A stretch of DNA of 64,000 nucleotides from an uncultured bacterium. Its GTDB lineage: Bacteria; Patescibacteriota; Minisyncoccia; UBA6257; GWB1-50-10. A program made the translations under genes and the position numbers. The stretch covers positions 209,934 through 273,933 of the forward strand of contig OY970216.1 of the NCBI GenBank assembly GCA_963713955.1. Direction: 5' to 3'. Positions 571-48,119 of this stretch are shown here, piece by piece. The stretch's first letter is position 1; every line of letters starts with the position of its first letter. The notes below the pieces were generated by a model that saw nothing but the letters and a program-made list of their open reading frames with translations, made no database searches and was not told where the DNA came from.

Positions 571-673
571 TGCCTCAATTTTAGCAGAAAATTATCTCTA
601 TTGCATTTATTTGTCAAAGATAAGGTCTTGTTGCAATTTTGAAGACGATAGGTCATTCCTCAAAATATTTAGA

Positions 674-2443: not shown

Positions 2444-2606
2444 GAGGTGAGAAATTTTGTGGGGCACGAGTATTCCATCGGGGTTGAATTCACCCCCGAG
2501 ACACTTTGACAATAAATTAAACAAGTGTTTTAATTGTTATTAGCATAAACAGGAACTATTTTGTTCTAGAAAAATCTTGAAATCATTAATATAAGGAGGA
2601 TTGAAA

Positions 2607-3593: not shown

Positions 3594-3666
3594 CGAATTT
3601 CAGCGATGAGTCGAGAATGAGTGCTGGACAATCCCAAAGGATAAGAAAAAAGAAAGGAGATGGATC

Positions 3667-3876: not shown

Positions 3877-3884
3877 ACTACTTG

Positions 3885-3927
3885 GAGTCGACGAGGGGAA
3901 CCCCCACGTCGACTCTTTTATTTTTTC
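3885..3927. terminator. Hairpin gagtcgacg-aggggaaccccc-acgtcgactc plus ttttatttttt. A rho-independent terminator shared by convergent genes.
   Basis: Perfect 9-bp stem plus T-run on the + strand. It abuts the clpP stop (3918) on the other strand. Confidence 0.55.
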
Positions 3928-11417: not shown

Positions 11418-12716
11418 ATGAAAACGATCATTCTTTCGGCTTTAATGCTCCTCATGAGCATTGCGCCGATAGATGTTTTGGGACAACAAAGTTCTGTGGC
11501 CCAAAAGGTGAACGGCTGTAACATCAGTCTCAAGTATAGTTGGTTCCCAGGCGGAGGCAGCATCAACGTGAGATCCGTGGCAGTTGTCAATGGAACCATC
11601 ATTGCTGGGACTACTGGCTGGAACGGGACAGCGTTCGTTGCGCCGGTGTATGTTTCTCAGGATACCGGCAAAACGTGGATTCCAATTGATTCCGCGAGAG
11701 GTCTCAATATTCCATGGAACCGGGTTTTCTCAGTATCTGCCGTGGATTCTCATCAGGTTATCATCGGAGCTGATTGTGGGATATACAAATCAATGGATTC
11801 CGGACTGCACTGGATTCAAGTTTATAATGATCCCAATGCTGGTTTTGGAGTATCCTACCTTGGCTACGATACTGTCATAGCCTGTGGTGGCCCCGGCGCC
11901 CTGAAGTCGAATGACAACGGTAATACTTGGCACTATGTAAGTAACGAGAACGTTGGCTGGGTAGTGAAAGCGCCAAATGGAAATCTGGTCAGTGGTATAG
12001 GAAGTGCTTTCGAGAGTGATGCTAAAGGTATCGTGATATCGTCTGATGGAGGGAATAATTGGGAGTCCTCCAACACGGGACTTACCAACAAAAACATATT
12101 TTCCCTGTCTGCCGATAGATCTGATGTCTATGCTGTCACTCATATCGGTGGCACATTTGTATCGCACGATGATGGCTCTTCATGGAGTCCGGTAACCAAT
12201 CTTCCTGATCAAGGGGAAGTTGTATCGACGATAAGTGGTTTGGGTGTGTTCGCTGGTTTCAGCCAGTCGGGTCAGCCAACCCTTTACTGGTCTCGTGACG
12301 GATCGAGTTGGTCTGCGGTCACCGTGTTCGACAATTGGCCGTTCTCGTTTGCTGAATTTGACTCAACCACCGTCGTTATCGGAACCGAAAGCGGCGTATG
12401 GATTGCGCACTTTGATAATCTCACTCCAGTTATCGAGCACCCTACAATTGCCACAAACTTCGCGTTATCCCAGAACTACCCGAACCCGTTCAACCCGACC
12501 ACTGCTATCAGATTCACGGTTTCAAAGAGAAGCTTTGTAACGCTCTCGGTCTACAACGTCCTTGGCCAGTTGGTGAAAACCCTGGTCAATGACGAGAAAA
12601 GTCCGGGAACTTACGAAGCAAGCTTTGACGGTACTTCACTCCCGTCGGGCACCTACATCTATCGTTTGCAAACTGATTTATACTCGCAGACGAAGAAAAT
12701 GGTTCTTTTAAAGTGA
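11418..12716 (+). CDS. BNR/Asp-box repeat beta-propeller protein (sialidase-like or Ycf48-like fold) with a type IX secretion system C-terminal sorting domain (Por_Secre_tail type).
   Basis: 432 aa. Signal peptide. Six S-x-D-x-G-x-(T/S)-W repeats (SQDTGKTW, SMDSGLHW, SNDNGNTW, SSDGGNNW, SHDDGSSW, SRDGSSW). C-terminus LSQNYPNPFNPTTAIRF...LSVYNVLGQLVKTLVN...SGTYIYRLQTD...KKMVLLK matches the T9SS CTD consensus. Extended -10 promoter ttgtggtataat and RBS aaaggag upstream. Confidence 0.75.
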   Translation: MKTIILSALMLLMSIAPIDVLGQQSSVAQKVNGCNISLKYSWFPGGGSINVRSVAVVNGTIIAGTTGWNGTAFVAPVYVSQDTGKTWIPIDSARGLNIPWNRVFSVSAVDSHQVIIGADCGIYKSMDSGLHWIQVYNDPNAGFGVSYLGYDTVIACGGPGALKSNDNGNTWHYVSNENVGWVVKAPNGNLVSGIGSAFESDAKGIVISSDGGNNWESSNTGLTNKNIFSLSADRSDVYAVTHIGGTFVSHDDGSSWSPVTNLPDQGEVVSTISGLGVFAGFSQSGQPTLYWSRDGSSWSAVTVFDNWPFSFAEFDSTTVVIGTESGVWIAHFDNLTPVIEHPTIATNFALSQNYPNPFNPTTAIRFTVSKRSFVTLSVYNVLGQLVKTLVNDEKSPGTYEASFDGTSLPSGTYIYRLQTDLYSQTKKMVLLK

Positions 12717-12727
12717 TCTTGTTCAAG

Positions 12728-12764
12728 GAGGTTCAGCTTAAAAACTGAACCTCTTTTCCGTTTT
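12728..12764 (+). terminator. Terminator hairpin gaggttcag-cttaaaaa-ctgaacctc plus ttttccgtttt. Copy 1 of a repeated terminator; the second copy is at about 19070.
   Basis: Perfect 9-bp stem immediately after the BNR gene stop, then a T-run. A near-identical element (cttgttcaa[a/g]gaggttcag...ctgaacc..ttttccgtttt) recurs at 19061-19108. Confidence 0.55.
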
Positions 12765-18909: not shown

Positions 18910-19069
18910 TAGTTTCGAAAAGTCCGTGCGCTTCGCACCTCCGGGCTTTTCTGCGTTTACGCGGCTTGTTTCCTCCTTCCCCTAATTTCTCCAAAACTAT
19001 CCTTATACCACGATCGTGGTGTTAGGGGAGATTTTGGAATCATCCGCCTGTGAAGTGACCTTGTTCAAA

Positions 19070-19108
19070 GAGGTTCAGTCCTAAAAAACTGAACCCCTTT
19101 TCCGTTTT
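19070..19108 (+). terminator. Copy 2 of the gaggttcag...ctgaacc hairpin plus ttttccgtttt terminator repeat.
   Basis: ttgttcaaagaggttcag-tcctaaaaaa-ctgaacccc-ttttccgtttt. Compare with 12721-12764. Confidence 0.5.
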
Positions 19109-20284: not shown

Positions 20285-20422
20285 AATGGGAGAAGGCTGA
20301 TACCTGCATCAGCCTTTTGAACTTCTTATTTGCCCGCGTGGTTTCACCACTGTTCCGGGCTTTTCTGCATTTAATGGAGCCACTATTGACAATTTTATTT
20401 CCACGCTTTAGTATACTAAAGT

Positions 20423-23504: not shown

Positions 23505-23699
23505 CTTTTGAAAAAACCCGCATGGTTTCACCACTGTTCCGGTTTTTCTGCGTTTACGCGGCTTGTTTCTCCCGCCAGCAGGCTCTTCGGTTTTCAAAAT
23601 TCCACCCTCGCGCAAAAGCTATGCCTGAAAGTGGGATGCTACAGTTAACTGTAGCAGCTCGGATTTCTCAGACTATGCCGCGTTTGCATTTGAACGAGC

Positions 23700-25326: not shown

Positions 25327-25454
25327 AACAGTTTTATTATACCAATAAAAGCCGAACGAACAATGAAGATATTCCACCACTCCTCATACTAAGAAGTGAT
25401 GGAGTATAAAAAGGCAGAAAAGTCCGGAGGTGCTAAGCACACGGACTTTTCGTA

Positions 25455-26777
25455 TCACTTCAAAAGCAGCATCTTCTTCGTCAGTGACAACCCATCAGAG
25501 GTTGTCAGACAATAGAAGTATGTGCCCGACGGAAAGTGACTTCCGTCGAACTGTACGACACGAATTCCTGGAGAAACAGTACCGTCCACCAATGTCGCTA
25601 CTTCTTGCCCGAGAACATTGTAAACCTTGAGGGTCACAAATGTTCTCAAAGCAACCGTATAGCTGATCGTCGTGGTCGGGTTGAACGGGTTCGGGTAGTT
25701 CTGGTTCAGGGTGAAGCCGTAGGGCTGGTTTGTTGTCGCATGGACTGCGGTTATAACACCATCGACACGCCACAGACCATTGGTAGTGCCGACGAGAAGC
25801 GAATGATTCTGAATCGCCAGACTCATCACTCCGATGGGAATGCCATTGATGCTATTTGGTACTACTTGCGTCCATCGTGCTCCGTCGTATTTGAATACAC
25901 CACCAGTTGCCGATCCCTGCCCACTGAAGCCGACGAAAATGGTATTCTTCTGGCCCACGAGAATAGTGGTCGCCTCTTTCTGAGACGAATCTATTCCTGT
26001 GATTTTCGTCCAGGTACCGCCGTTATCAATCGACTGATACACACCATCACCGGTACCGGTGAATGGGTTTCCGGTTCCGGCGTATAGGACACCGTTACTG
26101 TCAGCAGCTATGGCCTCAACATCTTGGAAGTTGATACCATTATCACTAGGCTGCCACGTTTTCCCTTCATTGGTGGAACAGAAAACGCTCGCACTATTCG
26201 CAATATTAACTGTCCCAGCAAAGATGAAACCTCTCGTATACACCAGAGTATTCACATACAGCGTGCTATCGTAGAAGATAGTTTTCCAATTTTCGCCGCC
26301 ATCAAATGATTGTAGGATGCCACCAGAAATGCCAGCCATAATTGCATCTCCTCTGATCAGGAAACATGTGATTGACGCACTATGCTTCCACGTTGTATAG
26401 GGTGACGGTGGAGAAGGTTGGGTCCAGCTTGAACCATTGTCGGTGGAACGGAATAACCCGTTCACGGTCCCGACAAGTATAGCGTTGGTCTTGGGATCGC
26501 GAACGACCGCATAGCTATAACGAGACCACCAATCGAGATTGATAGGCAATTGGGTCCATACTGCACCGTCATCCGTCGTCTGCATTATGCCCATATCAGC
26601 GGTAGCGGCAAGTATGTCATTGCTATCGCCGTCAACCCATAGTGAATTGACATTGATGCTCTGACCTATAAGACTGTCCGGCCAGATGTACGAGTAGGAA
26701 ACAGACGTACTGGATTGGCTTCTCGCGGACGAGATGCCAATCAGTACGGCTGCGAGAAACAATCCAATATTTTTCAT
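25455..26777 (-). CDS. Second BNR/Asp-box repeat beta-propeller protein with a T9SS C-terminal sorting domain. Start at MKNIGLFLAAVLIG.
   Basis: Signal peptide. Asp-box repeats (TTDDGAVWTQ, STDNGSSWTQ, SFDGGENWKT, STNEGKTWQP, SIDNGGTWTK). C-terminus LNQNYPNPFNPTTTISYTVALRTFVTLKVYNVLGQEVATLVDG...SGTYFYCLTTSDGLSLTKKMLLLK. 32 nt of the CTD coding sequence are identical (inverted) to gene 11418. Confidence 0.75.
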   Translation of the reverse strand: MKNIGLFLAAVLIGISSARSQSSTSVSYSYIWPDSLIGQSINVNSLWVDGDSNDILAATADMGIMQTTDDGAVWTQLPINLDWWSRYSYAVVRDPKTNAILVGTVNGLFRSTDNGSSWTQPSPPSPYTTWKHSASITCFLIRGDAIMAGISGGILQSFDGGENWKTIFYDSTLYVNTLVYTRGFIFAGTVNIANSASVFCSTNEGKTWQPSDNGINFQDVEAIAADSNGVLYAGTGNPFTGTGDGVYQSIDNGGTWTKITGIDSSQKEATTILVGQKNTIFVGFSGQGSATGGVFKYDGARWTQVVPNSINGIPIGVMSLAIQNHSLLVGTTNGLWRVDGVITAVHATTNQPYGFTLNQNYPNPFNPTTTISYTVALRTFVTLKVYNVLGQEVATLVDGTVSPGIRVVQFDGSHFPSGTYFYCLTTSDGLSLTKKMLLLK

Positions 26778-37984: not shown

Positions 37985-38371
37985 ATGTTTAAAGCAAAAG
38001 AAGGTTTCACCTTGATAGAAATGCTCGTCGTGATCGCGATGATCGGGCTTCTCTCGGCCGTTATCCTGGTCGCCCTCGGCCCCTCGAGAACCAAAGCCAA
38101 GGACACGAGAGTTATCTCGGACATAAACCAGATGAGGAGTTTGATGGAGTCAAGCTTCAATCCAAGTACAAGCCAATACGGTTCACCCGCCACGAGCAGC
38201 TTGGTGAACGACATAATCAGTCAAGGATCCTCTTTACAAGGTAGTGCATCTTCGACGGCTTACTGGTTCTACGCCTCGTTGCCGTCCGGCTCGGGAATGT
38301 ACTGCGTCGATAGTACTGGGTACTCGGGCATCGTAACTTCAACTAATACCGCAAGCTCTACTTGCCAATAA
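37985..38371 (+). CDS. Type IV pilin (prepilin with class III signal peptide).
   Basis: MFKAKEGFTLIEMLVVIAMIGLLSAVILVALGP has the G|FTLIEM cleavage/N-methylation motif. C-terminal Cys pair. Confidence 0.8.
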   Translation: MFKAKEGFTLIEMLVVIAMIGLLSAVILVALGPSRTKAKDTRVISDINQMRSLMESSFNPSTSQYGSPATSSLVNDIISQGSSLQGSASSTAYWFYASLPSGSGMYCVDSTGYSGIVTSTNTASSTCQ

Positions 38372-38378
38372 GCATAAG

Positions 38379-38849
38379 ATGAGAAAAAAAGGTTTCACTC
38401 TCATCGAAATGCTCATCGTGATCGCGATGATCGGAATTCTCTCGACGGTTATTTTGATTGCCCTCGGCCCCTCAAGGACCAAGGCGAAGGATACGAGGAT
38501 AATTTCGGACGTTAATCAGATAAGATCTCTTGGAGAAACATACTACGATCCCATAACGGGCCAGTACGATCTTGCGGGCGTGGCCGCGGCGGCTTCCTCC
38601 ACATTAGCTGACATGAGTGCTATGAATGGCGGAACATGGCAGCCGGACTGTCCATTTGGAAATCCCGACAACGGCATTAAGCCGTGGAGTGGCGATTCTG
38701 ATATTCAGGGAGTAGAGTGCCCCACCTCATTTGATAAATTTTCTGTTTACGGTAAGCTAGTTAGCCCCTCGGTTACTACCTACTACTGTGTGGACAGTTC
38801 AGGAAATACTGCCAACCTGAATCATGTGCCGGGCGTTACCTGTCAATAA
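38379..38849 (+). CDS. Type IV pilin.
   Basis: MRKKGFTLIEMLIVIAMIGILSTVILIALGP. Four Cys in the C-terminal half. Confidence 0.8.
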   Translation: MRKKGFTLIEMLIVIAMIGILSTVILIALGPSRTKAKDTRIISDVNQIRSLGETYYDPITGQYDLAGVAAAASSTLADMSAMNGGTWQPDCPFGNPDNGIKPWSGDSDIQGVECPTSFDKFSVYGKLVSPSVTTYYCVDSSGNTANLNHVPGVTCQ

Positions 38850-39331
38850 TGCGTCCCTTACACTATATAATGTGTAGAAATTCTAAGTCTGGTTTCACTC
38901 TCATTGAAATGCTCGTCGTGATCGCGATGATTGGTCTCCTCTCGGCTGTCATCCTGGTCGCCCTCGGCCCCTCGAGAACCAAAGCCAAGGACACGAGGGT
39001 GATTTCGGATGTGAACCAGGTCCGGGTGTTGGCAGAGAACTTGTTTGACATTTCCACTAGTAAGTACCCGACGTGTATTTGTAACAACTACCCGTGGGAC
39101 GATTGCAAACCCGATCCTGGCTTCTCGGCACTTAAGTCGGACGTGGCGAACGATGGTGGTTCATTCAGTGCAGGCTGCAATAACAAAAATACAGTTGCAG
39201 TTTTTTATTCCAGTCTACCGAGCGGCGGTGGCTATTGTGCTGATACCGCAGGGGGTGCCATTTCCGGTACGGTAGCCTCCAGTTCTCCACCCGGAACCCC
39301 AAATATAGGTGATGTTTGCCCAGAGCAGTAA
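38849..39331 (+). CDS. Type IV pilin. An alternative start is at ATG 38870 (MCRNSKSGFTLIEM).
   Basis: ..NSKSGFTLIEMLVVIAMIGLLSAVILVALGP. The nucleotide sequence of the N-terminal region is nearly identical to pilin 37985. Confidence 0.75.
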   Translation: MRPLHYIMCRNSKSGFTLIEMLVVIAMIGLLSAVILVALGPSRTKAKDTRVISDVNQVRVLAENLFDISTSKYPTCICNNYPWDDCKPDPGFSALKSDVANDGGSFSAGCNNKNTVAVFYSSLPSGGGYCADTAGGAISGTVASSSPPGTPNIGDVCPEQ

Positions 39332-39461
39332 GATGTAATATTATTAAACAATCCAGATGGTGAGAAAATATTTTTCTAAATCAGGCTTTACCCCGCACCG
39401 AGCCAAGCGCTGCAACGCTCTCGCGTTTTCAACAATGACAAGGGATAAGCTGGAACCAACA

Positions 39462-39986
39462 ATGGACATCAAGAGCCGAAATCACCCGTCAGCTGCGAGC
39501 GTTGAAAACGAAGCGCTTGATCTGGTGTCGGGGTTTACCTTAATCGAAATGCTCGTCGTCGTGGCTGTCATCGGGCTTCTTTCGTCCATTCTGTTGAACG
39601 CGTTGGGGCCTGCGAAGGACAAAGCGAAAGACGCAAGGATCATGCAGGAAGTGAATCAGGTGAGAGACATCGCCGAGACCTTGTACAACGGTACGTATAC
39701 CAATTTGCCCTCCATATCCGCCGGCACGACCCAGGTGAATAATGCCAATCTCCAATCGCTCACTTCTGACATTGATCTCCAGGGAGGGGAGCTGCACGTC
39801 GTTTTGTCATCTGACGTGAGAACCTACGTGGCTTACTCCAAACTGAACACAATGGTGCCGGATCCGGTAACAGGTACCCCGACGACCCAGTACTACTGCG
39901 TCGACAGCTCGGGAAAAGCGGTTTTTCTCACGACCCAGCCCAATGACAATAGAATAAGCAATTCTTCGCCGGCCACGTGCGATTAG
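39462..39986 (+). CDS. Type IV pilin with a long leader (MDIKSRNHPSAASVENEALDLVSG|FTLIEM). The ORF track starts at 39357 and includes a degenerate partial copy of a pilin N-terminus (KSGFTPHRAK).
   Basis: SGFTLIEMLVVVAVIGLLSSILLNALGP. The upstream in-frame stretch aaatcaggctttacc... mimics the first codons of pilin 38870 and then diverges. Confidence 0.65.
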   Translation: MDIKSRNHPSAASVENEALDLVSGFTLIEMLVVVAVIGLLSSILLNALGPAKDKAKDARIMQEVNQVRDIAETLYNGTYTNLPSISAGTTQVNNANLQSLTSDIDLQGGELHVVLSSDVRTYVAYSKLNTMVPDPVTGTPTTQYYCVDSSGKAVFLTTQPNDNRISNSSPATCD

Positions 39987-40110
39987 ACATGCCCCGTAGG
40001 ACAACTTCGAACGGGGTATTTCGGAGCGTTTACTTAAGGATTGGGGAGTGAGCTAAGGTCCCGTAGAGAGTTAAAAGGTCTATCATGCAAACAAGAAATA
40101 ATTCGAAGTT

Positions 40111-41022
40111 GTGCTACAGGGTATGATCGGGTTCCTGCTTCTTTTCTTCCTTGGCTTGTCGTTCGGCAGTTTCTTCAACGTTTTGATTCTGCGGTACGAT
40201 CCGGAGGGTAAATTCTTCGATATCAAGAAATTGAGCGGCCGGTCGCATTGCCCGAAATGCATGAGGACGCTCGGCCCCGGGGAACTCATCCCCGTTTTCA
40301 GTTTCATATTTCTCGGAGGGAAATGCTTGCACTGCAGGGAAAGAATATCCTTCTTCTATCCTTTTACCGAACTTTTGACCGGCATTGTTTTTGCCGGCAT
40401 CCCGTATTTCTTGAACGGTTTCTACGGCATAAGCAACGCGGTTTTTTGGATTTTTGCGTTGCCGACGTGGTATTACACCCTTGTTCTTTTCTGGCTCATC
40501 GCGATTGTGACGCTTGTTCTGATTGCCCTTGTCGATTTCAAGTACTATCTCATCCCGGACGAACTAGAGGTAATTCTCTTCCTCGCGGGTGCGGCCGTGT
40601 CGCTTTTGCTCTTTTACTGCGGATCGACGCTCATTGAACCCTTCCGCGATTCATTCCTCAAAAATTATGCCATCATCTTTTCACCGACGCAAAATGTCCT
40701 CATAAGTCATGCCTTTGGAGCCCTTATCGGGGGATTATTCTTTTTGCTGCTTGTTGTCCTGAGTCGCGGGCGGGGGATCGGCTTCGGGGATGTGAAGCTC
40801 GCTTTCGCTTCCGGCGCGGTTCTGGGTTGGCCGGACATAGGTCTTGCAGTTGTTCTCTCGTTCATCCTGGGAGGCATCGTAGGCGTGATTCTTCTTGCCT
40901 TGAGGAGCAGGGGCATGAAGGACAAGGTCCCGTACGCGCCGTTTTTTGTCATCGGCGTCCTCCTCACGGTCGTTTTGGGTCACGCCATCATTTTCAATTA
41001 CTTCCGCCTGTTTGGCATGTAG
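40111..41022 (+). CDS. pilD: Prepilin peptidase PilD (A24 family). GTG start in the ORF track; an ATG at 40123 is also possible.
   Basis: Zn-binding tetracysteine CPKC...CLHC near the N-terminus. Multi-TM. Catalytic Asp contexts (YYLIPDELEV..., IGFGDVKLAFASG). Confidence 0.85.
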   Translation: MLQGMIGFLLLFFLGLSFGSFFNVLILRYDPEGKFFDIKKLSGRSHCPKCMRTLGPGELIPVFSFIFLGGKCLHCRERISFFYPFTELLTGIVFAGIPYFLNGFYGISNAVFWIFALPTWYYTLVLFWLIAIVTLVLIALVDFKYYLIPDELEVILFLAGAAVSLLLFYCGSTLIEPFRDSFLKNYAIIFSPTQNVLISHAFGALIGGLFFLLLVVLSRGRGIGFGDVKLAFASGAVLGWPDIGLAVVLSFILGGIVGVILLALRSRGMKDKVPYAPFFVIGVLLTVVLGHAIIFNYFRLFGM

Positions 41023-41038
41023 GGTATAATAAACCCTA

Positions 41039-41548
41039 ATGAAGGAAGGATTCACTCTCATAGAGACATTGATCGTTCTCGCGATAACGGCGATCCTCTC
41101 GACCATATTCTTGGCCTACAACAGTTCTTCGAACGGCCAAGTCGCGCTCTATACGGAGCGGGCGCAAGTGGTGGGAGCGCTCCAAAGAGCTAAGACGCTC
41201 GCTCTCGACAAATACATGGTGAGCCCCGGGAGCACCTCTTCCTGCGCTTTCGGCGTTCATTTCCAAACCTCGACGGGAGTTTACTCCATTTATGGAAAAT
41301 ACCCGCCGCCCGGCAGCACCGATTGCACCGCCGGTTACGGCTTCATGGGCAACTCAAGTGACACGGTGGTGCAAAGCTTGCAACTCCAGGGAAAGGTTGG
41401 ATTTGTCGATCCCACCCCGTCAGACATTTATTTCGTCCCGCCGTATTTCATCGCAAACGCGACCGGCACTATCACCCTCAAGAGCAACGATAGCGGTGCC
41501 ACGGCGTCCATCGAGGTCACTCAAGGAGGGAGCATTTCATCTCTTTGA
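41039..41548 (+). CDS. Minor pilin / pseudopilin-like protein (FimT/GspH-like).
   Basis: MKEGFTLIETLIVLAITAILSTIFLAY has a class III signal. 169 aa. Confidence 0.7.
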   Translation: MKEGFTLIETLIVLAITAILSTIFLAYNSSSNGQVALYTERAQVVGALQRAKTLALDKYMVSPGSTSSCAFGVHFQTSTGVYSIYGKYPPPGSTDCTAGYGFMGNSSDTVVQSLQLQGKVGFVDPTPSDIYFVPPYFIANATGTITLKSNDSGATASIEVTQGGSISSL

Positions 41549-42081
41549 CGAATATGAGAATAACGCGTCTTAAAAACCGGGAAGGCAGCCTTATGATAGA
41601 AGCCATCGTGGCGGCGAGCCTCGTCGTCGTGGGTCTCTTGGGACTTTTCAATTTGATTTACAACTCGACGGTCAGGGACAAAGACGTAATCCACAAACTC
41701 CAGGCGACGTACTTAGCAGCGGAGGGAATAGAAGTGGTAAAAAACTTCATAGATCAAAACGTCGCTAGCGGAACTCAATGGAACGCCAATCTGTACACAG
41801 GGGATTATCAAGATGTTTCGTTCGATAATCTGGGTCAGGTCGGGACTGGGGATAGCGCCGTTTATTTTGCGACAACCACGGGACTTTTTACCGGATATAG
41901 TTCGGTGTTCACCGCTTTTTCCGGCGGGTCGAGAGAGTTGGCGCTCTTTTCCCGGGTCGTATCGTTGAATGTCGGAACGAATCAAATCAGCGTCACGTCG
42001 ACCGTTTCCTGGTCGGAAGAAGGGAAAAGTGAGTCGGTGAGCTTAGACGACATCTTCTATAATTGGAGGAAACCAAGTTAA
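41545..42081 (+). CDS. Minor pilin-like protein with an atypical prepilin N-terminus.
   Basis: REGSLMIEAIVAASLVVVGLLGLF (G-SLMIEA variant of the cleavage motif). 178 aa. Confidence 0.5.
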   Translation: MTNMRITRLKNREGSLMIEAIVAASLVVVGLLGLFNLIYNSTVRDKDVIHKLQATYLAAEGIEVVKNFIDQNVASGTQWNANLYTGDYQDVSFDNLGQVGTGDSAVYFATTTGLFTGYSSVFTAFSGGSRELALFSRVVSLNVGTNQISVTSTVSWSEEGKSESVSLDDIFYNWRKPS

Positions 42082-42147
42082 ACTTTGTAATATGTTTTTT
42101 GGAATTCATTTCAAAACACCTCTCTGGGTGAAAAAATGCGTGAGGAT

Positions 42148-42228
42148 GCAGACTCAGGAGGGCAAAAAAGTGGGTAAGACTTGGCCTAGCGGCCCGGAGC
42201 GCACACCTTTTTGGCTTCCTGAGTCTGC
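42148..42228. repeat. Copy 1 of a structured palindromic intergenic element: 37-nt conserved core (42170-42206) flanked by A6/T5 runs and a 12-nt inverted repeat gcagactcagga / tcctgagtctgc.
   Basis: Core gtgggtaagacttggcctagcggcccggagcgcacac. Also present at 47461-47497 (+) and 45376-45412 (reverse complement). Confidence 0.6.
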
Positions 42229-42265
42229 AATTATTACCTTTAAAGAGAAGAAGTTACAGAAATAC

Positions 42266-42826
42266 ATGGGTTTCACCATCGTTGAGCTTCTGGTCGCGAT
42301 GGCCGTTTTCGTCATCGTGGTCACGGTCGCGACAGCCATCTTCATACGGTCGCTCCAGAACCAGCGGCGCCTGGTGACGGTCATGGGCATGCAAACAAAT
42401 CTCGACACGGCCCTCGAGCAGATGGCGAGGGAGGTGAGGGGAGGATATTTGTTCTCAGCAAGTACCCTTACATGCGCGAATTCAGTGTCGTTCGACACCG
42501 CGAGCGGTACCGCGGTGTCTTACGGACTATCCAGTAGTTCTATCGTGAGGAACGGGCAGCCGATAACGTCGAGCGACGTCAAGGTTTCGAATCTTTGCTT
42601 TATAGTTTCGCAGGCTCCATTGGGAGATGCGGGCATGTATACCAATCCAGGGAGTCCTTGTAATCCCTGGAGAGTGACGGTAGCCGCCGAGGTTGAGCCG
42701 AGAGTAGCGGGACAATCGAATAATATAGAGCCGTTTTACCTCCAAACCACCGTGAGCTCGCGGGTTTTGCCAAAGGACATGCCGGCGGATATAAAGGGGC
42801 AATATGGATACACATCTTGTCAGTAA
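42266..42826 (+). CDS. PilW/GspJ-like minor pilin. Start at MGFTIVELL; the ORF track 42092 start spans an intergenic repeat element.
   Basis: MGFTIVELLVAMAVFVIVVTVATAIFIRSLQNQRR has prepilin-type N-terminal cleavage/methylation. About 186 aa. Confidence 0.6.
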   Translation: MGFTIVELLVAMAVFVIVVTVATAIFIRSLQNQRRLVTVMGMQTNLDTALEQMAREVRGGYLFSASTLTCANSVSFDTASGTAVSYGLSSSSIVRNGQPITSSDVKVSNLCFIVSQAPLGDAGMYTNPGSPCNPWRVTVAAEVEPRVAGQSNNIEPFYLQTTVSSRVLPKDMPADIKGQYGYTSCQ

Positions 42827-43211
42827 AAATTTAAGGAAAGCTCAGGCTATGATGGTGGTAACCATTCTCATGGGAGGCTTATTTTTGGTTGGCACCGCCG
42901 TTGCGGGCCTTCTCATGCTTTACCAGCTGAAACAATCTTCCGACGCCGTGAGTTCCGGCGCGGCTGTCTTCGCGGCCGATGCCGGGACCGAGGCCAGTCT
43001 TTTCTGCTACTATACGACCTCGACGCCGTCGACTATCTGCGGTATAGGGTACCTCTGCCCGACTTCCGTAAAGCTGCCGAATGGCGCTTCCGCTTCCTCA
43101 ACGCTTCTCTTTCACTGTGACGGGGGATCGCCATCGTATTTCACGGCCGTGAGTTACGGGTATGCCGGCACGTCCGAACGGGTCGTGCAGTCTAACTTCT
43201 CGTTGGAATAG
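42804..43211 (+). CDS. Pilus-associated membrane protein (PilX-like minor component), hypothetical.
   Basis: 135 aa. N-terminal TM MMVVTILMGGLFLVGTAVAGLLML. Cys-rich C-terminus. Last gene of the pilus cluster. Confidence 0.4.
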   Translation: MDTHLVSKNLRKAQAMMVVTILMGGLFLVGTAVAGLLMLYQLKQSSDAVSSGAAVFAADAGTEASLFCYYTTSTPSTICGIGYLCPTSVKLPNGASASSTLLFHCDGGSPSYFTAVSYGYAGTSERVVQSNFSLE

Positions 43212-43219
43212 AAGAGGGT

Positions 43220-45352
43220 ATGACGAAAAACGAAGCCCGGGAACGGATCGAAAAACTGAAGAAAGAAATAAACAAATACCGCTATGCGTATCACGTACTC
43301 GATCGGGAACTTATTTCTCCCGAGGCGCTGGACTCGCTGAAGAAAGAACTTTTCGATCTGGAGCACGAATTTCCGGAATTCGTGACGCCGGATTCCCCAA
43401 CGCAGCGCGTTGAGGGGAAGCCCTTGAAGGCGTTCAAGAAAGTGCCTCACGAGCGGCCCATGATTTCGTTCGACGATTCGTTCTCCGAGGGGGACATGCA
43501 AGCGTGGCTTTCCCGCTTGGAAAATTTTTTGGGGAGGGGAATAGCCGATGCTCACGAGGCGCTGGGAGAAAAACCGTACCGGAGGGGAGACAAAAAACCT
43601 CCTGTCTTTTATTGCGAACTCAAAATCGACGGACTGGCGATCGAGCTCGTGTACGAGCATGGCGTTCTGGTCCAGGGTTCGACGCGAGGAAACGGGCTCA
43701 TCGGCGAAGACGTGACACAGAATTTGAGAACCATCGAAGCCATTCCCTTGAATCTTTTGCCTTCCGAAGAAGCAGCCGAGAACTTGCGGAAGCTCGGCGT
43801 AAACCCTAAACCCTATACCCTAAACCCTCGGCGTCTCGTTGTTCGCGGCGAAGCGTTCATCGCGAGGAAAGAATTTGAGAGGATAAACAGAGAACGATTG
43901 AAGCGGCACGAAAAAGCATACGCGAATCCACGGAACATCGCCGCTGGATCGATACGGCAGCTTGATCCCAAAATCACGGCGTCGCGGAAACTGGATTCTT
44001 TCCAGTATGCGCTCTTCACCGACATCGGACAGAAATTCCATGAAGAGGAACATCTGCTCCTCAAAGCTTTCGGCTTCAAGACCAATCCCCACAACAAAGG
44101 TGTGAGTTCCCTGAAAGAAGCATTCGCATTCAGGGATTACTGGGTGGATCATCGGAACGAAATATCGTATGAAATCGACGGGACAGTGGTTCTCGTGAAC
44201 AGCAACAAGATTTTCAACGAGGCGGGGGTCGCAGGAAAAGCGCCGCGCGGCGCGATGGCCTATAAATTTTCCCCCCGGGAGGCGACCACCAGAGTTTTGG
44301 ATATCGTGGTTCAGGTCGGCCGTACCGGCGTTTTGACGCCCGTCGCCGTCATGGAGCCAGTCGGAGTCGGTGGCGTTACGATCACGCACGCGACGCTTCA
44401 CAATGAAGACGAGGTGGAGCGCCTTGACCTCCGGGTAGGCGACACGATTGTCGTTTCCCGCGCCGGAGACGTCATTCCGCAGGTGACGCAAGTTCTGAAA
44501 AATTTGCGGACCGGCCACGAGAGGAAGTTCAAAATGCCATCCGTTTGCCCGGTTGACGGCGGCCGCGTTGCAAAAATCGGCGCCCTCACAAAGTGTACGA
44601 ACCCCGACTGCGGCGCGAAACACAAGGAGTCGCTCTACCATTTCGTTTCCCGGACTGCCTTCGACATCCGCGGACTCGGACCGAAGATTCTGGACAAGTT
44701 CTTGGACGAAGGACTCATTTCCGATGCGGCCGACATCTTTGAGGTGAAAGAAGGGGACATCGAAGCCTTGCCGCGGTTCGGCGAAAAATCGGCCGAAAAC
44801 ATCGTCCGGGAGGTAAGTCAGAAGAGAAAAACGAGCTTGCCGAGGTTTTTGTACGCTCTCGGGATTCTTCATGTCGGCGAGGAAACGGCGGTCCTCTTGG
44901 CGCAAGCAATTTCAAGACCGAAATTCCGAATTTCGAAGCCAACCGATGTGGGCGAAGTTACGAAGTCCTTCTCGCTGGAGGAGCTTCAAGAATTGCCCGA
45001 TATCGGGCCGATCGTCGCGAAGAGTATTTACGACTGGTTCCGTACCGCGAAAAATGCGAGGTTCTTGGAGAGATTGGAAAAAGCGGGGGTGGAAATAGAG
45101 CGGATTAAATCGACAGACAAAAGCCAAAAGTTGAAAGGACGGACGTTCGTCTTGACCGGCACCCTGTCTTCAATGTCCCGCGACGAAGCGAAGGATAAGA
45201 TAAGGGAACTAGGCGGTGACGTTTCTGAAACCGTTTCGACAAAAACCACTTTTGTCGTCGTGGGAGAAAATCCGGGATCGAAGTACGACCGGGCAGAAAA
45301 ACTAGGTGTCCAAATCTTAGACGAAGAAGAGTTTAGAGAGCTTATTAGTTGA
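43220..45352 (+). CDS. ligA: NAD-dependent DNA ligase LigA.
   Basis: 710 aa. Adenylation motif KIDGLAIELVYEHG (KxDG). Zn-finger CPVDGGRV...C..C. HhH motifs and C-terminal BRCT (GRTFVLTGTLSSMSRDEAKDKIRELGGDVSETVS). Confidence 0.95.
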   Translation: MTKNEARERIEKLKKEINKYRYAYHVLDRELISPEALDSLKKELFDLEHEFPEFVTPDSPTQRVEGKPLKAFKKVPHERPMISFDDSFSEGDMQAWLSRLENFLGRGIADAHEALGEKPYRRGDKKPPVFYCELKIDGLAIELVYEHGVLVQGSTRGNGLIGEDVTQNLRTIEAIPLNLLPSEEAAENLRKLGVNPKPYTLNPRRLVVRGEAFIARKEFERINRERLKRHEKAYANPRNIAAGSIRQLDPKITASRKLDSFQYALFTDIGQKFHEEEHLLLKAFGFKTNPHNKGVSSLKEAFAFRDYWVDHRNEISYEIDGTVVLVNSNKIFNEAGVAGKAPRGAMAYKFSPREATTRVLDIVVQVGRTGVLTPVAVMEPVGVGGVTITHATLHNEDEVERLDLRVGDTIVVSRAGDVIPQVTQVLKNLRTGHERKFKMPSVCPVDGGRVAKIGALTKCTNPDCGAKHKESLYHFVSRTAFDIRGLGPKILDKFLDEGLISDAADIFEVKEGDIEALPRFGEKSAENIVREVSQKRKTSLPRFLYALGILHVGEETAVLLAQAISRPKFRISKPTDVGEVTKSFSLEELQELPDIGPIVAKSIYDWFRTAKNARFLERLEKAGVEIERIKSTDKSQKLKGRTFVLTGTLSSMSRDEAKDKIRELGGDVSETVSTKTTFVVVGENPGSKYDRAEKLGVQILDEEEFRELIS

Positions 45353-45356
45353 TAAA

Positions 45357-45431
45357 GAATCGGTGAATTAAAAAAGTGTGCGCTCCGGGCCGCTAGGCCA
45401 AGTCTTACCCACTTTTTTACCTCACCGATTC
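45357..45431. repeat. Copy 2 (reverse orientation) of the 37-nt-core palindromic element, flanked by the inverted repeat gaatcggtgaa / ctcaccgattc. Sits between convergent ligA and the PHP gene.
   Basis: gtgtgcgctccgggccgctaggccaagtcttacccac at 45376-45412 is the exact reverse complement of the core. A6 and T6 runs flank it. It would act as a bidirectional terminator-like structure. Confidence 0.6.
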
Positions 45432-45435
45432 TTCC

Positions 45436-46131
45436 TCAGCGAAACAAGTTCAGGGTGGTTTTGAGGAGTATCCTCATGACGTATTCGTCCGTGAGTCTCG
45501 CGGGCGGCGAGATGATTTTTATTTTTCCTTCCTTCACGGCTTTTGCGATGGACGGGAACGAACTGTCGTCGGCTTCCAGAATTGAGTAGCTTCCGTCGAG
45601 CCAATCGAGGTCGTGGGTATCGGACGTGGCGACGATCGGCAGGTTGTGTGTGAGAGCGAAATGACCCGCCTCTTTGTTGAGATTCAAGAACTTGAAGTGG
45701 AACCACGAGTACTCCACAGCGTCGAAAAGCTCCACGTGTTCCTTGAGCTTCCTGCCTAATGAAACTCCCCCGCCGAAGAACGGGTGGGGGGCGATAATGA
45801 GCACTTCCGGATGGGCTTCTTTGTATTTCTTCAAGTCGGAAAACGTTTCTACGTTTTCCGCCGATTTATCGACATTCAACATGATGACATCCTTTCCTTC
45901 CACGCTCTTTTCTATGCCTTGAATGAGGTTTATGCCGAGACTCTTCGCGTATTCGTGGTATTTTTCGTCGTCCGTCACGAAATTGTGGCACGTGACCGCG
46001 AGAGCATCGAAGCCGAGCTCCTTGGCCTTGCGAAGCCCCTCAAAGAGGCTGTGCTTCGCGACGAGTGCCGCTCGTTCCTTGTCTTCCACGTCGTCTTTCG
46101 TGTGAAAATGAAGATTTGTTTTAATTTTCAT
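45436..46131 (-). CDS. PHP-domain metal-dependent phosphoesterase.
   Basis: 231 aa. N-terminal NLHFHTKDD (HxH), AVTCHN, IIAPHPFF, ATSDTHDLD metal-ligand contexts typical of the PHP family. Confidence 0.7.
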   Translation of the reverse strand: MKIKTNLHFHTKDDVEDKERAALVAKHSLFEGLRKAKELGFDALAVTCHNFVTDDEKYHEYAKSLGINLIQGIEKSVEGKDVIMLNVDKSAENVETFSDLKKYKEAHPEVLIIAPHPFFGGGVSLGRKLKEHVELFDAVEYSWFHFKFLNLNKEAGHFALTHNLPIVATSDTHDLDWLDGSYSILEADDSSFPSIAKAVKEGKIKIISPPARLTDEYVMRILLKTTLNLFR

Positions 46132-46190
46132 GAGGAATTTGCTATAATGAGATTAATAATAAAAGGTCGTTTAATAATAAGCTATAAGAG

Positions 46191-46871
46191 ATGTTTATTC
46201 AAGATTGGACGTCTATCGTTGCGACTTCGCTCCAAAATCTTTGGATCGGGTTCATAAACGCAGTCGCCGGCATCATCGGGGCGCTCATCGTCCTTATCAT
46301 AGGGCTTATCGTCGCGTCTCTCTTGGGTACGCTCGTGGAAAAGATAGTGAACGTCATCCAGTTGGACAAATTGTTGTCCAATTTGGGGCTCGGCGAATAT
46401 TTCGAGAGGGCGGGGTTGAGTCTGAAGAGCGGAAAATTCTTCAAGAAGCTCGTATATTGGTTCCTGGTTGTCGTGTTCCTCTTAGCCGCTTCCGATATAC
46501 TCGGCTTTTATTCGCTTTCCTCGTTCCTCGAGAGCGTGCTCCTCTACGTTCCCAACGTGATCGTGGCGGTTCTCATCATGCTTGCCGCGTTCGTCATCGG
46601 CCATTTCTTGAGAAACCTGGTAGCCGCTTCCATAAAAGCTTCGAAGCTTCACGGAGCGGGATTCCTGGGTTCTCTCACGTGGTGGGCGATTGTCGTCTTC
46701 GGATTCCTCGCATCGCTCTCACAGCTCGGCATTGCGGTTACCATCATTAACGCGCTCGTGACGGGGTTGATTGCCATGCTCGCTATTGCCTTCGGTTTGG
46801 CCTTTGGGTTGGGGGGCAAAGGGTATGCCGAACATCTGATAGAAAAGCTGAGGGATCGGACGGAAAGGTAG
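46191..46871 (+). CDS. Polytopic membrane protein with conserved TM-helix repeats (MscS-associated TM_helix-like), function unknown.
   Basis: 226 aa. At least five hydrophobic helices (IGFINAVAGIIGALIVLIIGLIVASLLG, etc.). Followed by hairpin terminator cccgtcccgattctgatcgggacggg plus tttt at about 46896-46930. Confidence 0.45.
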   Translation: MFIQDWTSIVATSLQNLWIGFINAVAGIIGALIVLIIGLIVASLLGTLVEKIVNVIQLDKLLSNLGLGEYFERAGLSLKSGKFFKKLVYWFLVVVFLLAASDILGFYSLSSFLESVLLYVPNVIVAVLIMLAAFVIGHFLRNLVAASIKASKLHGAGFLGSLTWWAIVVFGFLASLSQLGIAVTIINALVTGLIAMLAIAFGLAFGLGGKGYAEHLIEKLRDRTER

Positions 46872-47118
46872 AATCGGCAAGAATCATTTCGCGTGAAAAC
46901 TATCCCGTCCCGATTCTGATCGGGACGGGATTTTCTTGCCCCGTCACCAGATCAAGCGTTTCGCTCCCAGCGCCGGAGACCAGCTTGGGGATAGGAGGAA
47001 TCTTGCAATTGCTCCTCGCCTTGATTATCCCAAGGAACGCTGGAAGCGACAGGCGCTGCAGTGCTTGGCTCGGTACGGGGCTTGCCCCTTTGGCGAACCT
47101 TGTGATACCCTAGAAGGC

Positions 47119-47436
47119 ATGAATGATTTTGCCGTAGTCGTGACCGGCGGAAAACAGTACAAGGTCAAAGCCGGGGACAAGCTGAAAATCGAGAAGATAA
47201 GCGGTGAGCCGGGCCAGCCTTTTTCTTTTGACAAAGTACTCTTGGTTTCGAAAGGGGAAAACACCGCGATAGGCACTCCCTACCTCGCGGATGCGTCGGT
47301 CACGGCGAAAATCGTCTCTGGCGGCAGGGACGATAAGAAGATTGTCTTCAGATTCCATTCCAAAACCAGGTACCGGAAACTTAAGGGGCATCGGCAGCAC
47401 TACACCGAGGTCTCTGTTAGTAAAATAAACCTCTAG
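47119..47436 (+). CDS. rplU: 50S ribosomal protein L21. Start at MNDFAVVV; the ORF track 46936 start lies within the leader.
   Basis: MNDFAVVVTGGKQYKVKAGDKLKIEKI...FDKVLLV...GRDDKKIVFRFHSKTRYRKLKGHRQHYTEV matches the L21 family consensus (GGKQY, GHRQ.YT). Confidence 0.85.
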   Translation: MNDFAVVVTGGKQYKVKAGDKLKIEKISGEPGQPFSFDKVLLVSKGENTAIGTPYLADASVTAKIVSGGRDDKKIVFRFHSKTRYRKLKGHRQHYTEVSVSKINL

Positions 47437-47440
47437 GGAA

Positions 47441-47517
47441 GAGCTCGGCGAGGCGAAAACGTGGGTAAGACTTGGCCTAGCGGCCCGGAGCGCACACATT
47501 TTCGGCTTGCCGAGCTC
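47441..47517. repeat. Copy 3 of the 37-nt-core palindromic element, flanked by the inverted repeat gagctcggc / gccgagctc. Sits between convergent rplU and recR.
   Basis: Core at 47461-47497 is identical to copy 1. The outer stems differ from copies 1 and 2 but remain self-complementary. Confidence 0.6.
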
Positions 47518-47519
47518 TT

Positions 47520-48119
47520 TTACGTCCTCTTCTCGAATGAGTGGAGAAGGGTTGTCTCGTCGGCAAATTCTACCTCGCCTCCCGTGGGGAGTCCCCGGCC
47601 GAGCCGGGTTATTTTTTTTGCCAGATTCTTAAAATCCTCCCGTATGAGATCGGACGTAAAGTCGCCGATCGACGTGGCATTCAGGGCTACGATGATTTCC
47701 TCAGCCTTCCCGCCGAGCTCTTTTTTTATCCTCTCTTTCAGCTTTTCCAGACGGTCTTTTTGCTCTTGTCCCAAGATCCCCTTTTCGGCCAAGTTCCCGA
47801 GGATGAGGTAGTGTCCGTTGAACTTGCTTATTTTCTCGAACGTCAGGAGATCGGTTTCTCTTTCGACGACAGCCACGATGTGCGAGTCCCTCTCGGGGTC
47901 AGAGCAAATTCGGCACAATTTTTCGTTTCTCTCTTTTACGAAGAAACAGCGTTCGCAGACATCGAGTTTCGTGAGCCCTTCGAGGGCTGCAACCGTATTT
48001 TCGAGGTCCACCTTTTCCATCTGGAGAAAGAAAAAAGCCAGCCGCGTTGCCTGCCGCGGCCCCAAGATAGGCAGTTTTGAAAAACGGTCTATAAATCTTT
48101 TTATTTCCTCTGGTATCAT
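47520..48119 (-). CDS. recR: Recombination protein RecR. Start at MIPEEIKRF.
   Basis: HhH LPILGPRQATRLAFFFL. C4 zinc finger CERC...CRIC. Toprim domain (HIVAVVERETD, ILGNLAE), then the C-terminal region. Confidence 0.8.
   Translation of the reverse strand: MIPEEIKRFIDRFSKLPILGPRQATRLAFFFLQMEKVDLENTVAALEGLTKLDVCERCFFVKERNEKLCRICSDPERDSHIVAVVERETDLLTFEKISKFNGHYLILGNLAEKGILGQEQKDRLEKLKERIKKELGGKAEEIIVALNATSIGDFTSDLIREDFKNLAKKITRLGRGLPTGGEVEFADETTLLHSFEKRT

What the first reader, a model, noticed from the sequence alone, without database searches (positions are those of the whole stretch)
42148..47517. Three intergenic copies of a 37-nt conserved core held inside different self-complementary stems
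gtgggtaagacttggcctagcggcccggagcgcacac occurs at 42170-42206 (+), 47461-47497 (+) and as an exact reverse complement at 45376-45412. In every copy the core is flanked by an A-run upstream and a T-run downstream, and then by 9-12-nt outer arms that are different in each copy but always mutually complementary: gcagactcagga/tcctgagtctgc; gaatcggtgaa/ctcaccgattc; gagctcggc/gccgagctc. A conserved loop with co-varying stems is the signature of a selected RNA or DNA structure rather than a decaying repeat. Two copies sit between convergent genes (ligA>|<PHP; rplU>|<recR), where the structure would serve as a bidirectional terminator. The third lies between two co-directional pilus genes. Options are a novel REP/MITE-like element, a recognition site for a DNA-binding protein or recombinase, or a small structured RNA.
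Basis: seen in the sequence. Interest (0 to 1): 0.6.

Follow-up and report, generated by a model that had tools for sequence, protein, structure and literature searches.

The report
Palindromic repeat element of CPR bacteria
The three copies belong to a large, apparently undescribed family of about 85-base hairpin-forming repeats. The family is scattered through the tiny genomes of Patescibacteria (CPR), both after genes and in frame inside essential genes, much like the 'selfish' palindromic elements of Rickettsia.

Summary
Three exact copies of the 37-nt core lie at 42170-42206 (+), 45376-45412 (-) and 47461-47497 (+), and each sits at the tip of an ~81-87-nt hairpin.

They are not a local curiosity. 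A 22-nt piece of the core occurs in more than 117 stretches of Patescibacteria/CPR genomes, and no Rfam family matches. Across 111 copies a ~21-bp stem covaries strongly.

At least 20 of 115 copies lie inside real genes, in frame and in either orientation. These genes include ValRS, RarA, IF-2, ArgRS, MiaA, TruB and KsgA. This is the hallmark of Rickettsia palindromic elements (RPE).

The distribution is patchy: one copy in 673 kb of LigA relatives. Unbiased samples of orthologues show many decayed or deleted copies, so the 'perfect' core conservation I first saw was partly an artefact of exact-match searching.

In some lineages, however, the central 45 nt is frozen even at synonymous sites inside RarA, while the outer arms change and stay paired. 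Something therefore constrains the nucleic acid itself.

Best reading: an RPE-like interspersed palindromic element. Its apex is recognised by an unknown trans-acting factor, and its intergenic copies may also serve as 3'-end or terminator hairpins. I rate it a new variant of a known kind.

The parts
42147..42229 (+). Copy 1: whole hairpin element. The outer arms are GCAGACTCAGGA (42148-42159) and TCCTGAGTCTGC (42217-42228), the inner arms are GGGCAAAAAA and CTTTTTGGCT, and the core lies at 42170-42206.
   Evidence: I11. The covariance model scores it 80.0 bits. It lies in frame (KTWPSGPER) inside ORF 42092-42826.
42170..42206 (+). Core/apex of copy 1. It consists of a 5-bp closing stem GTGGG/CACAC with a G.A mismatch, a U.G pair, a purine-rich 4x4 internal loop (AAGA/GAGC), and a GGCC-UAGC-GGCC hairpin.
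   Evidence: Exact match.
45351..45437 (-). Copy 2: whole hairpin element on the minus strand, with its core at 45376-45412. It fills the whole gap between the ligA stop (45350-45352) and the stop of the convergent PHP-domain gene (45436-45438).
   Evidence: (I8). The covariance model scores it 84.7 bits. A LigA relative (L192, the same contig as L065, 61% LigA identity) has a copy in the same place and orientation.
47436..47522 (+). Copy 3: whole hairpin element, with the hairpin at 47439-47519 and the core at 47461-47497. It fills the gap between the rplU stop (47434-47436) and the stop of the convergent recR gene (47520-47522).
   Evidence: (I13). The covariance model scores it 83.2 bits.
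42092..42826 (+). Prepilin-type gene whose annotated 244-aa product (identical to P0241) reads through copy 1 before the G|FTIVELL cleavage motif (M-G-F at 42267). Copy 1 would then be part of a 59-aa leader peptide. If translation instead starts at 42267, the leader would be only 'MG'.
   Evidence: Homologues have leaders of 4-25 aa, and several have other insertions at this spot. The true start codon is not established.

Best explanation
The three copies are members of a large family of interspersed palindromic (hairpin-forming) DNA elements specific to Patescibacteria/CPR. They are functionally analogous to the Rickettsia palindromic elements. The unit is the whole ~73-90-nt hairpin. It has a ~29-nt apex of fixed sequence closed by a short covarying stem, often an A-run and T-run, and then ~15-25 bp of fast-evolving but always complementary arms. 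Copies have spread to many unrelated loci. Surviving copies sit where they do no harm: directly after stop codons, and in frame in surface loops and linkers of proteins, where they are translated as 25-30 extra residues. Four of the six frames through the core are open. Shown here: the spread, the structure, the in-frame intragenic copies in both orientations, the patchy lineage-specific presence, decay and deletion in many lineages, and nucleotide-level freezing of the central 45 nt in others. Inferred: the apex is the recognition site of an unidentified trans-acting protein, present in only some lineages, that binds the folded single strand carrying the 'sense' core. The arms stay complementary through compensatory change or intra-hairpin template switching. 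Intergenic copies such as copies 2 and 3 are tolerated, or co-opted, as bidirectional 3'-end or terminator hairpins.
For: Spread and specificity. The 22-mer is found in more than 117 stretches, and every listed record is a CPR MAG. There are none in 2.9 million viral contigs, no Rfam family matches, and there are no plasmid matches.

Structure. The stem is 21 bp and 22 of 29 pairs show double changes. Cells are 88% paired against 61% in shuffles, and the covariation score is 0.635 against 0.159. G.U exceeds A.C about 2:1 on the core's strand, while A.C sits at background mismatch level.

Intragenic in-frame copies. All 20 spanning ORFs tested have Pfam domains that span or flank the element. 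They are ValRS, RarA (3), Wzy (2), IF-2, ArgRS, MiaA (2), TruB, cysteine desulfurase (2), FtsJ, KsgA, methyltransferases (2), a histidine kinase and an LTD-domain protein.

Patchiness. There is one copy in 673 kb around 80 LigA relatives and no fossils there. The nearest relative, L119, lacks all three sites.

Decay. The RarA and IF-2 loops in 120 homologues each show intact, mutated and deleted versions in three frames and orientations.

Constraint. RarA orthologues L200, L201 and L091 show 0 of 15 synonymous differences in the central 45 nt. Elsewhere in the gene 45-57% of identical-residue codons differ, and the arms differ but stay paired at -49 to -59 kcal/mol.

RPE properties are taken from PMC10969869 and PMC1779305.
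Against: No transposase, target-site duplication or clean empty site was found. Direct repeats at the hairpin base are at most slightly above chance, and neighbouring genes are ordinary housekeeping genes. Purely selfish DNA should not stay frozen at synonymous sites at one locus across diverged orthologues with locus-specific closing stems. That observation points to host-level constraint, or to an unknown maintenance process. The conserved part is the centre rather than the ends, which is the opposite of MITEs, REPs and REPINs. There is no sequence relationship to RPEs. Mobility itself is inferred from distribution and was not observed.
Confidence: 0.6

Rival explanations
1. A host-maintained, strand-specific single-stranded DNA signal rather than selfish DNA. 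The folded hairpin with its fixed apex would be read by a conserved CPR protein. One possibility is a priming site for complementary-strand synthesis on single-stranded DNA, like plasmid single-strand origins. Another is a DNA-uptake or recombination signal in these naturally competent bacteria, or a binding site for a nucleoid protein or gyrase, as in BIME/RIP elements.
For: Copies are conserved in either orientation relative to genes and inside genes. Synonymous sites are frozen in situ together with locus-specific closing stems. G.T exceeds A.C on one strand. At motif level the element resembles ssoA, with TAGCG in the terminal loop (CS-6 is TAGCGT) and GCCGAG in an arm (RSB is TTATGCCGAGAAAATTT; PMC4598088). 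Uptake sequences of Haemophilus and Neisseria likewise occur in genes, in both orientations and in terminators (my own knowledge).
Against: There is no sequence or architectural similarity to the real ssoA of pT181 or to any plasmid. The density of roughly 1 per 20-150 kb is far below that of known uptake sequences. Single-strand origins work in one orientation only, whereas the three window copies are +, -, + within 5.4 kb. Closely related genomes lack the element altogether, so it is dispensable. No binding protein is known.
Confidence: 0.2
2. A structured RNA element. It would be a bidirectional intrinsic terminator or an mRNA 3'-end stabilising hairpin whose apex binds a conserved RNA-binding protein.
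For: Intergenic copies start 0-20 nt after a stop codon. Copies 2 and 3 exactly fill the gap between convergent genes. The closing stem is flanked by a 5' A-run and a 3' T-run in 53% of copies, against 10% with the reverse polarity. Conserved U.G wobbles and a G.U excess fit RNA. The fold is very stable.
Against: The core's orientation relative to the gene it follows is near random, at about 36 sense and 46 antisense, so half the transcripts would carry the complement. Only 5% of copies have a T-run after the full hairpin. At least 20 copies lie in frame inside essential genes. Antisense intragenic copies are conserved just as strictly. There is no conserved promoter. The window has ordinary short terminators elsewhere, at 46902-46931.
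Confidence: 0.15
3. An intron-like or bypassed element. The hairpin would be removed from the mRNA, with the stem bringing the cut sites together and the apex acting as the enzyme's handle, or it would be skipped by the ribosome. Its integrity would then be essential to the host gene.
For: This would explain why the apex is frozen at synonymous sites inside essential genes and why a semi-conserved motif sits at the stem base (A before the stem, GAA after it). CPR rRNA genes are known for unusual insertions (my own knowledge).
Against: Every intragenic copy examined keeps an open, in-phase frame through the whole element (20 of 20). The 120 RarA and 120 IF-2 homologues are all predicted as continuous proteins, with the element-derived peptide evolving as protein sequence. 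No split genes were seen. Both orientations occur at the same site.
Confidence: 0.05

Closest known systems
Rickettsia palindromic elements (RPE-1 to RPE-10)
   Same: Both are interspersed palindromic repeats of about 100 bp in a reduced genome. Both are found in intergenic DNA and in frame inside unrelated housekeeping genes, where they add a peptide. Both show lineage-specific proliferation and ancient copies shared by orthologues, and the mobilising enzyme is unknown in both (PMC10969869, PMC1779305; here).
   Different: The host clade is different (CPR, not Rickettsiales), and there is no evidence of sequence relationship. The element is shorter, at 73-90 nt. The conserved part here is a ~29-nt apex with freely varying arms, whereas RPE families are defined by a consensus over the whole element. 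Four reading frames are used rather than one conserved peptide. The central 45 nt is frozen at synonymous sites in some lineages.
REP / REPIN elements with RAYT transposases, and BIME/RIP mosaics of enterobacteria
   Same: Both are hairpin-forming repeats placed after genes and between convergent genes, in either orientation. BIME-1/RIP has a conserved central protein-binding motif between inverted arms. Both have been proposed to act as terminators or mRNA stabilisers.
   Different: REP stems are the conserved part and are species-specific. REPs are extragenic by definition and are linked to a RAYT gene. Here the arms vary, copies occur inside genes, the core is shared across classes of CPR, and no RAYT-like gene was seen near copies.
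MITEs, ERIC and Correia elements
   Same: All are short non-autonomous repeats with inverted-repeat structure. ERIC also occurs in either orientation in transcribed regions and has variants with extra internal inserts, as seen here in L107/L111 and L074.
   Different: MITEs have conserved terminal inverted repeats and target-site duplications. Here the termini vary and no clear duplication is found.
ssoA-type single-strand origins of rolling-circle plasmids
   Same: Both are strand-specific long hairpins with a conserved terminal-loop motif TAGCG(T/A) and a GCCGAG-containing stem motif (PMC4598088).
   Different: ssoA is about 130-160 nt with several sub-hairpins, resides on plasmids and has a fixed orientation. 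pT181 palA shows no alignable similarity.

Membership tests
Rickettsia palindromic elements (RPE) | Interspersed repeat that folds as a palindrome or hairpin, about 100-150 bp | tested here: met
   Hairpins have a median length of 85 nt, somewhat shorter than RPEs, and occur in more than 115 copies.
Rickettsia palindromic elements (RPE) | Copies in both intergenic DNA and protein-coding genes, inserted in frame | tested here: met
   All 20 spanning ORFs tested are real genes with the element in frame.
Rickettsia palindromic elements (RPE) | Sequence homology to an RPE family consensus, with a Rickettsiales host | tested here: not met
   All hosts are Patescibacteria. I did not compare sequences with RPE consensus sequences because none were available. 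The element is therefore an analogue, not a member.
REP / REPIN-RAYT | Conserved stem (REP) sequence with a 5' GTAG, extragenic location, and an associated RAYT gene | tested here: not met
   The arms vary while the loop is conserved. Copies occur inside genes. No recurrent transposase-like neighbour was found within 3 kb. Whole genomes were not searched for RAYT.
MITE | Conserved terminal inverted repeats and a target-site duplication | tested here: not met
   The terminal arms are not conserved in sequence. Direct repeats at the base number 25 for 4-mers, 13 for 5-mers and 4 for 6-mers among 103 copies. Chance predicts roughly 20, 5 and 1, which is at most a slight excess.
Rho-independent (intrinsic) terminator | GC-rich hairpin immediately followed by a U-tract, at the end of a transcription unit | tested here: inconclusive
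   A T-run of at least 5 in 8 follows the full hairpin in only 5% of copies. An A-run and T-run flank the inner closing stem in 53%. Copies 2 and 3 lie between convergent genes, but many family members are intragenic.
Any Rfam 15 RNA family | A covariance-model match at the gathering score | tested here: not met
   There are no hits in the 64-kb window. At a permissive E-value only generic miRNA-like hairpin models appear, far below threshold.
ssoA single-strand origin | RSB (TTATGCCGAGAAAATTT) and CS-6 (TAGCGT) in a ~130-160-nt folded structure on a rolling-circle replicon | tested here: not met
   Only TAGCG and, in one subfamily, TGCCGAG are shared. There is no similarity to pT181 palA or to plasmids, and the location is chromosomal.
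TIGR-Tas stem-loop guide arrays | Tandem arrays next to a Nop-domain tas gene, with loops that carry variable spacers between short box C/D motifs | tested here: not met
   The copies are dispersed, the loop is invariant, and no tas gene is adjacent (PMC12045711).

The most novel reading that the evidence does not exclude
The element is not merely tolerated selfish DNA. It would be a strand-specific, folded single-strand signal that some CPR lineages actively maintain, even at synonymous sites inside essential genes, because a conserved protein reads its apex. Candidate roles are priming of complementary-strand synthesis on imported or displaced single-stranded DNA (sso-like), or marking DNA for uptake or recombination in these obligately DNA-scavenging bacteria. 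That would make it a superphylum-wide cis-acting nucleic-acid signal of a new kind.
Probability: 0.2. Interest if true: 0.85.

Novelty: new variant of a known kind. Interest (0 to 1): 0.72.

Why it matters
In-frame palindromic 'selfish' elements have been treated as a near-unique oddity of Rickettsia. Finding an analogous family across the CPR superphylum shows that the phenomenon recurs in reduced genomes. It supplies many natural examples of peptide insertion into essential proteins such as aminoacyl-tRNA synthetases, IF-2 and RarA. The unusual layout, with a fixed apex and free arms, and the nucleotide-level freezing inside genes imply an unidentified protein partner and possibly a new mobilisation or maintenance mechanism. 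In practice the 22-29-nt core is a compact sequence marker for CPR. It can also break assemblies, confuse gene callers and cause mis-annotated start and stop codons.

Tried and rejected
1. Known RNA families: Rfam at gathering and permissive thresholds found nothing.

2. Origin from tRNA: a local alignment against 153 tRNAs and tmRNAs from the fetched loci gave only 7-8-nt chance matches.

3. I compared the core from memory with K-turn, UAA/GAN, SRP, 5S rRNA and 23S rRNA motifs and found nothing convincing. This was not tested further.

4. Insertion into pre-existing terminator loops: rejected as the general rule, because the outer arms have biased, orientation-specific pair composition (for example C-G 40 against G-C 9 at one position) and share a subfamily consensus across genomes. 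One possibly 'empty' orthologous hairpin after clpP (window 3873-3916) is inconclusive.

5. A terminator test by gene direction: A-run and T-run lengths do not differ between sense and antisense contexts.

6. TIGR-Tas arrays and ssoA: rejected as memberships.

7. My early conclusion that the core is 'hyper-conserved with no fossils' was an ascertainment artefact of exact-match searching. Protein-level samples of RarA and IF-2 orthologues show many decayed copies.

8. Literature searches for the sequence and for CPR repeats or structured RNAs found no description. One preprint could not be opened.

9. Two script calls were wasted.
Full report
OBSERVATION. The 37-mer occurs exactly three times in the window, at 42170-42206 (+), 45376-45412 (-) and 47461-47497 (+). 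None is expected by chance, and there are no near-copies with up to 3 mismatches. Each copy is flanked by an A-run and a T-run and by complementary arms (I8, I11, I13). Each folds into one long hairpin with the core at the tip, at -42 to -50 kcal/mol and z about -6. Copies 1 and 3 are 90% identical over 63 nt (D4). Copies 2 and 3 exactly fill the gaps between the stop codons of convergent genes: ligA with a PHP-domain gene, and rplU with recR. A covariance model built later finds only these three in the window, at 80-85 bits. The opposite strand scores 17-19 bits. A peptide and nucleotide scan finds no decayed copies elsewhere in the window.

A LARGE FAMILY, NOT A LOCAL DUPLICATION. No Rfam family matches. 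Every listed record is a Patescibacteria/CPR MAG: Saccharibacteria, Paceibacterota, Parcubacteria, Minisyncoccia, Kaiser-, Adler- and Nomurabacteria, and Peribacteria. It is absent from 2.9 million viral contigs and from plasmids.

STRUCTURE ACROSS THE FAMILY. An ungapped alignment of 111 copies (A1) shows a ~21-bp stem directly adjoining the core. Of its 29 pairs, 22 have compensatory double changes. Cells are 88% paired, against 61% in shuffles and 38-49% when the partner column is slid. The covariation score is 0.635 against 0.159. The 5-bp closing stem covaries (GTGGG/CACAC, GGGAG/CTCCC, GAGAC/GTCTC and others) around a frequent purine-purine mismatch. A U.G pair is kept in 107 of 111 copies. 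Rare core variants are themselves compensatory: GGCC/GGCC becomes GGGC/GCCC at two loci, and C11 is lost together with its partner G at two others. G.U pairs are about twice as frequent as A.C on the core's strand, and A.C is no more frequent than other mismatches. One particular strand therefore folds. The arms are most often 23 nt long, and the median total length is 85 nt. The arms are not random. Several positions prefer one orientation of a pair (C-G 40 against G-C 9). Arms of the window's GTGGG subfamily resemble those in other genomes (GAGAyTCGGyA...). The whole hairpin is thus the repeated unit.

LOCATION. With crude ORF calls, intergenic copies begin 0-20 nt after a stop codon. The core's orientation relative to that gene is near random, at about 36 sense and 46 antisense, and only 7 copies lie between divergent genes. 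Only 5% have a T-run after the complete hairpin. In 53% an A-run precedes and a T-run follows the closing stem, against 10% with the reverse polarity. Neighbouring genes are ordinary housekeeping genes, and no transposase recurs.

THE DECISIVE FINDING: MANY COPIES LIE INSIDE GENES, IN FRAME. Four of the six frames through the core are open: sense KTWPSGPER and VRLGLAARS, antisense ALRAARPSL and RSGPLGQVL. Long ORFs run through 33 copies. All 20 that I tested are real proteins whose Pfam domains span or flank the insert. They are:
- ValRS, between the catalytic and anticodon-binding domains, at the same site in two genomes;
- RarA/MgsA, inside the AAA+ domain, in three genomes and both orientations;
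- O-antigen ligase (2), IF-2, ArgRS and MiaA (2, both orientations);
- TruB, cysteine desulfurase (2), FtsJ, KsgA, two small methyltransferases, a histidine kinase and an LTD-domain protein.

In the window, copy 1 lies in frame within the ORF annotated as a 244-aa prepilin-type protein (P0241). It sits upstream of the G|FTIVELL cleavage motif. Homologues have leaders of 4-25 aa, so copy 1 is either part of an extended leader that is cleaved off, or lies in the 5' UTR. In-frame residence in unrelated housekeeping genes, together with intergenic copies, is the defining peculiarity of Rickettsia palindromic elements (PMC10969869, PMC1779305).

PATCHINESS AND DECAY. In 673 kb around LigA genes of 80 relatives (59-81% identity) there is a single copy. 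It lies after ligA in the same orientation as copy 2. There are no weaker covariance-model hits. The closest relative, L119 (81% LigA identity), lacks all three sites. Its two pilin genes abut, and ligA is followed by gatC. Conversely, two relatives (L013, L110) carry a copy between clpP and tyrS. At that position the window has a plain hairpin (3873-3916) and 3.3 kb of other genes.

Samples that were not selected for the core correct my early impression of perfect conservation. In 120 RarA homologues, the loop between DIKxxLG and LFIDE is either 27-32 aa or 11-15 aa. The long form is the whole 87-nt element. Some long forms have an intact RSGPLGQVL peptide, many are mutated (RSRPLGQAL, RSGALAQVL and others), and some are in sense frames. 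The short forms look like deletion remnants (GQIKFDT..RPK). The IF-2 linker shows the same pattern in three frames and orientations. This is an inference.

A REAL CONSTRAINT REMAINS. RarA orthologues L200, L201 and L091 are 79-82% identical in protein, and 45-57% of their identical-residue codons differ. They nevertheless share a 45-nt block (closing stem plus core, in antisense orientation) with 0 of 15 synonymous differences. Their outer arms differ yet remain paired, at -49 to -59 kcal/mol. The closing stem is specific to this locus, which argues against overwriting from paralogous copies. L202 carries a coherent five-change variant core that is shared by a subfamily.

INTERPRETATION. The spread to dozens of unrelated sites, the in-frame copies, the random orientation, the nested inserts (55 nt in L107/L111 and a 16-nt hairpin in L074) and the lineage-specific gain, decay and deletion all identify an interspersed palindromic element of the RPE/REP/MITE kind.

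It differs from all of those in having a fixed centre and free ends. It also shows nucleotide-level conservation in situ in some lineages. I infer a trans-acting factor that reads the folded apex on one strand and is present in only some lineages. Whether that factor mobilises the element or uses it for the host is open. The rivals are as follows:
- A host DNA signal, sso-like or uptake-like, at 0.2.
- An RNA terminator or 3'-UTR element, at 0.15. It is weakened by the random orientation and the intragenic copies.
- A spliced or bypassed element, at 0.05. It is contradicted by uniformly open, in-phase frames.

For the window itself, copies 2 and 3 may well act as bidirectional 3'-end hairpins. 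That would be a local by-product and not the reason the family exists.

LIMITS. Mobility is inferred and was not observed. No enzyme, target duplication or clean empty site was found. Copy number per genome is only roughly estimated. No transcript or protein data were available. Literature searches in the held library found no description of this element, but that library is incomplete.

Noticed in passing
window 18916-18958 / 25410-25452; 18944-18972 / 23541-23569; 20333-20363 / 23517-23547; 12737-12764 / 19081-19108; 12470-12568 / 25606-25704: A second set of short repeated sequences, unrelated to the core, recurs in direct and inverted orientation between about 12 and 26 kb (for example CGAAAAGTCCGTGCGCTTCGCACCTCCGGGCTTTTCTGCGTTT). 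They may be another repeat family or shared terminators and promoters of duplicated genes.
   Followed up: no
window 37996-42826: A cluster of at least five paralogous prepilin-type genes shares the N-terminal GFTLIE(M/L)L coding segment (repeat families D1, D2 and D7). Copy 1 sits at the last of them.
   Followed up: partly
proteins P0255, P0256, P0258, P0261, P0263 (homologues of window 42092-42826): Several homologous pilins carry other 25-60-aa insertions exactly at the leader cleavage motif, with the GFT motif duplicated on both sides (GFTPH...GFTIVELL). That looks like a target-site duplication by a different inserted element. P0256 (LWPKTGPKG) may be a decayed copy of the present one.
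   Followed up: no
L107:2079-2220 (-) and L111:5222-5360 (+): Two copies with different stems carry the same 55-nt extra hairpin (ACCAATTTTTCTTGCCTGTACTCAGGATTAGAAAAATGGAAGTGCTCTTGTGGTG). It is inserted between GGAGCG and CGC on the 3' side of the apex, so it is a nested insert or an optional third stem. In L107 the two arms no longer pair well.
   Followed up: partly
L074:1201-1299 (-); L012:2541-2627 (-): L074 has a 16-nt hairpin (TCCGCCAGCTGGCGGA) replacing the GCC of the apical stem while keeping TAGCG and CCCGGAGCGC. L012 has a scrambled core but a perfect long stem whose outer arm (AAGAGCTCGGC) equals that of window copy 3.
   Followed up: partly
window 570-3920: In relatives L013 and L110, tyrS and clpP are separated only by one copy of the element. 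In the window they are 3.3 kb apart, with two plus-strand genes (1067-2443 and 2601-3593) in between. Plain hairpin terminators lie at 676-705 and 3873-3916.
   Followed up: partly
window 46902-46931: An ordinary intrinsic terminator lies between the MscS-like gene and rplU. It has a perfect 13-bp stem, a 4-nt loop and a T-rich tail, and shows what core-less terminators look like in this genome.
   Followed up: yes
L032:1777-1947 (-): Two cores lie 84 nt apart in a partial tandem duplication. The first unit lacks its 3' arm and runs into a complete second unit.
   Followed up: no
L001 (Logan contig ERR12035932_1628822, 3223 bp): A short-read assembly of the same organism ends 47 nt after the ligA stop, within copy 2. 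This suggests that the hairpin or repeat breaks assemblies.
   Followed up: no
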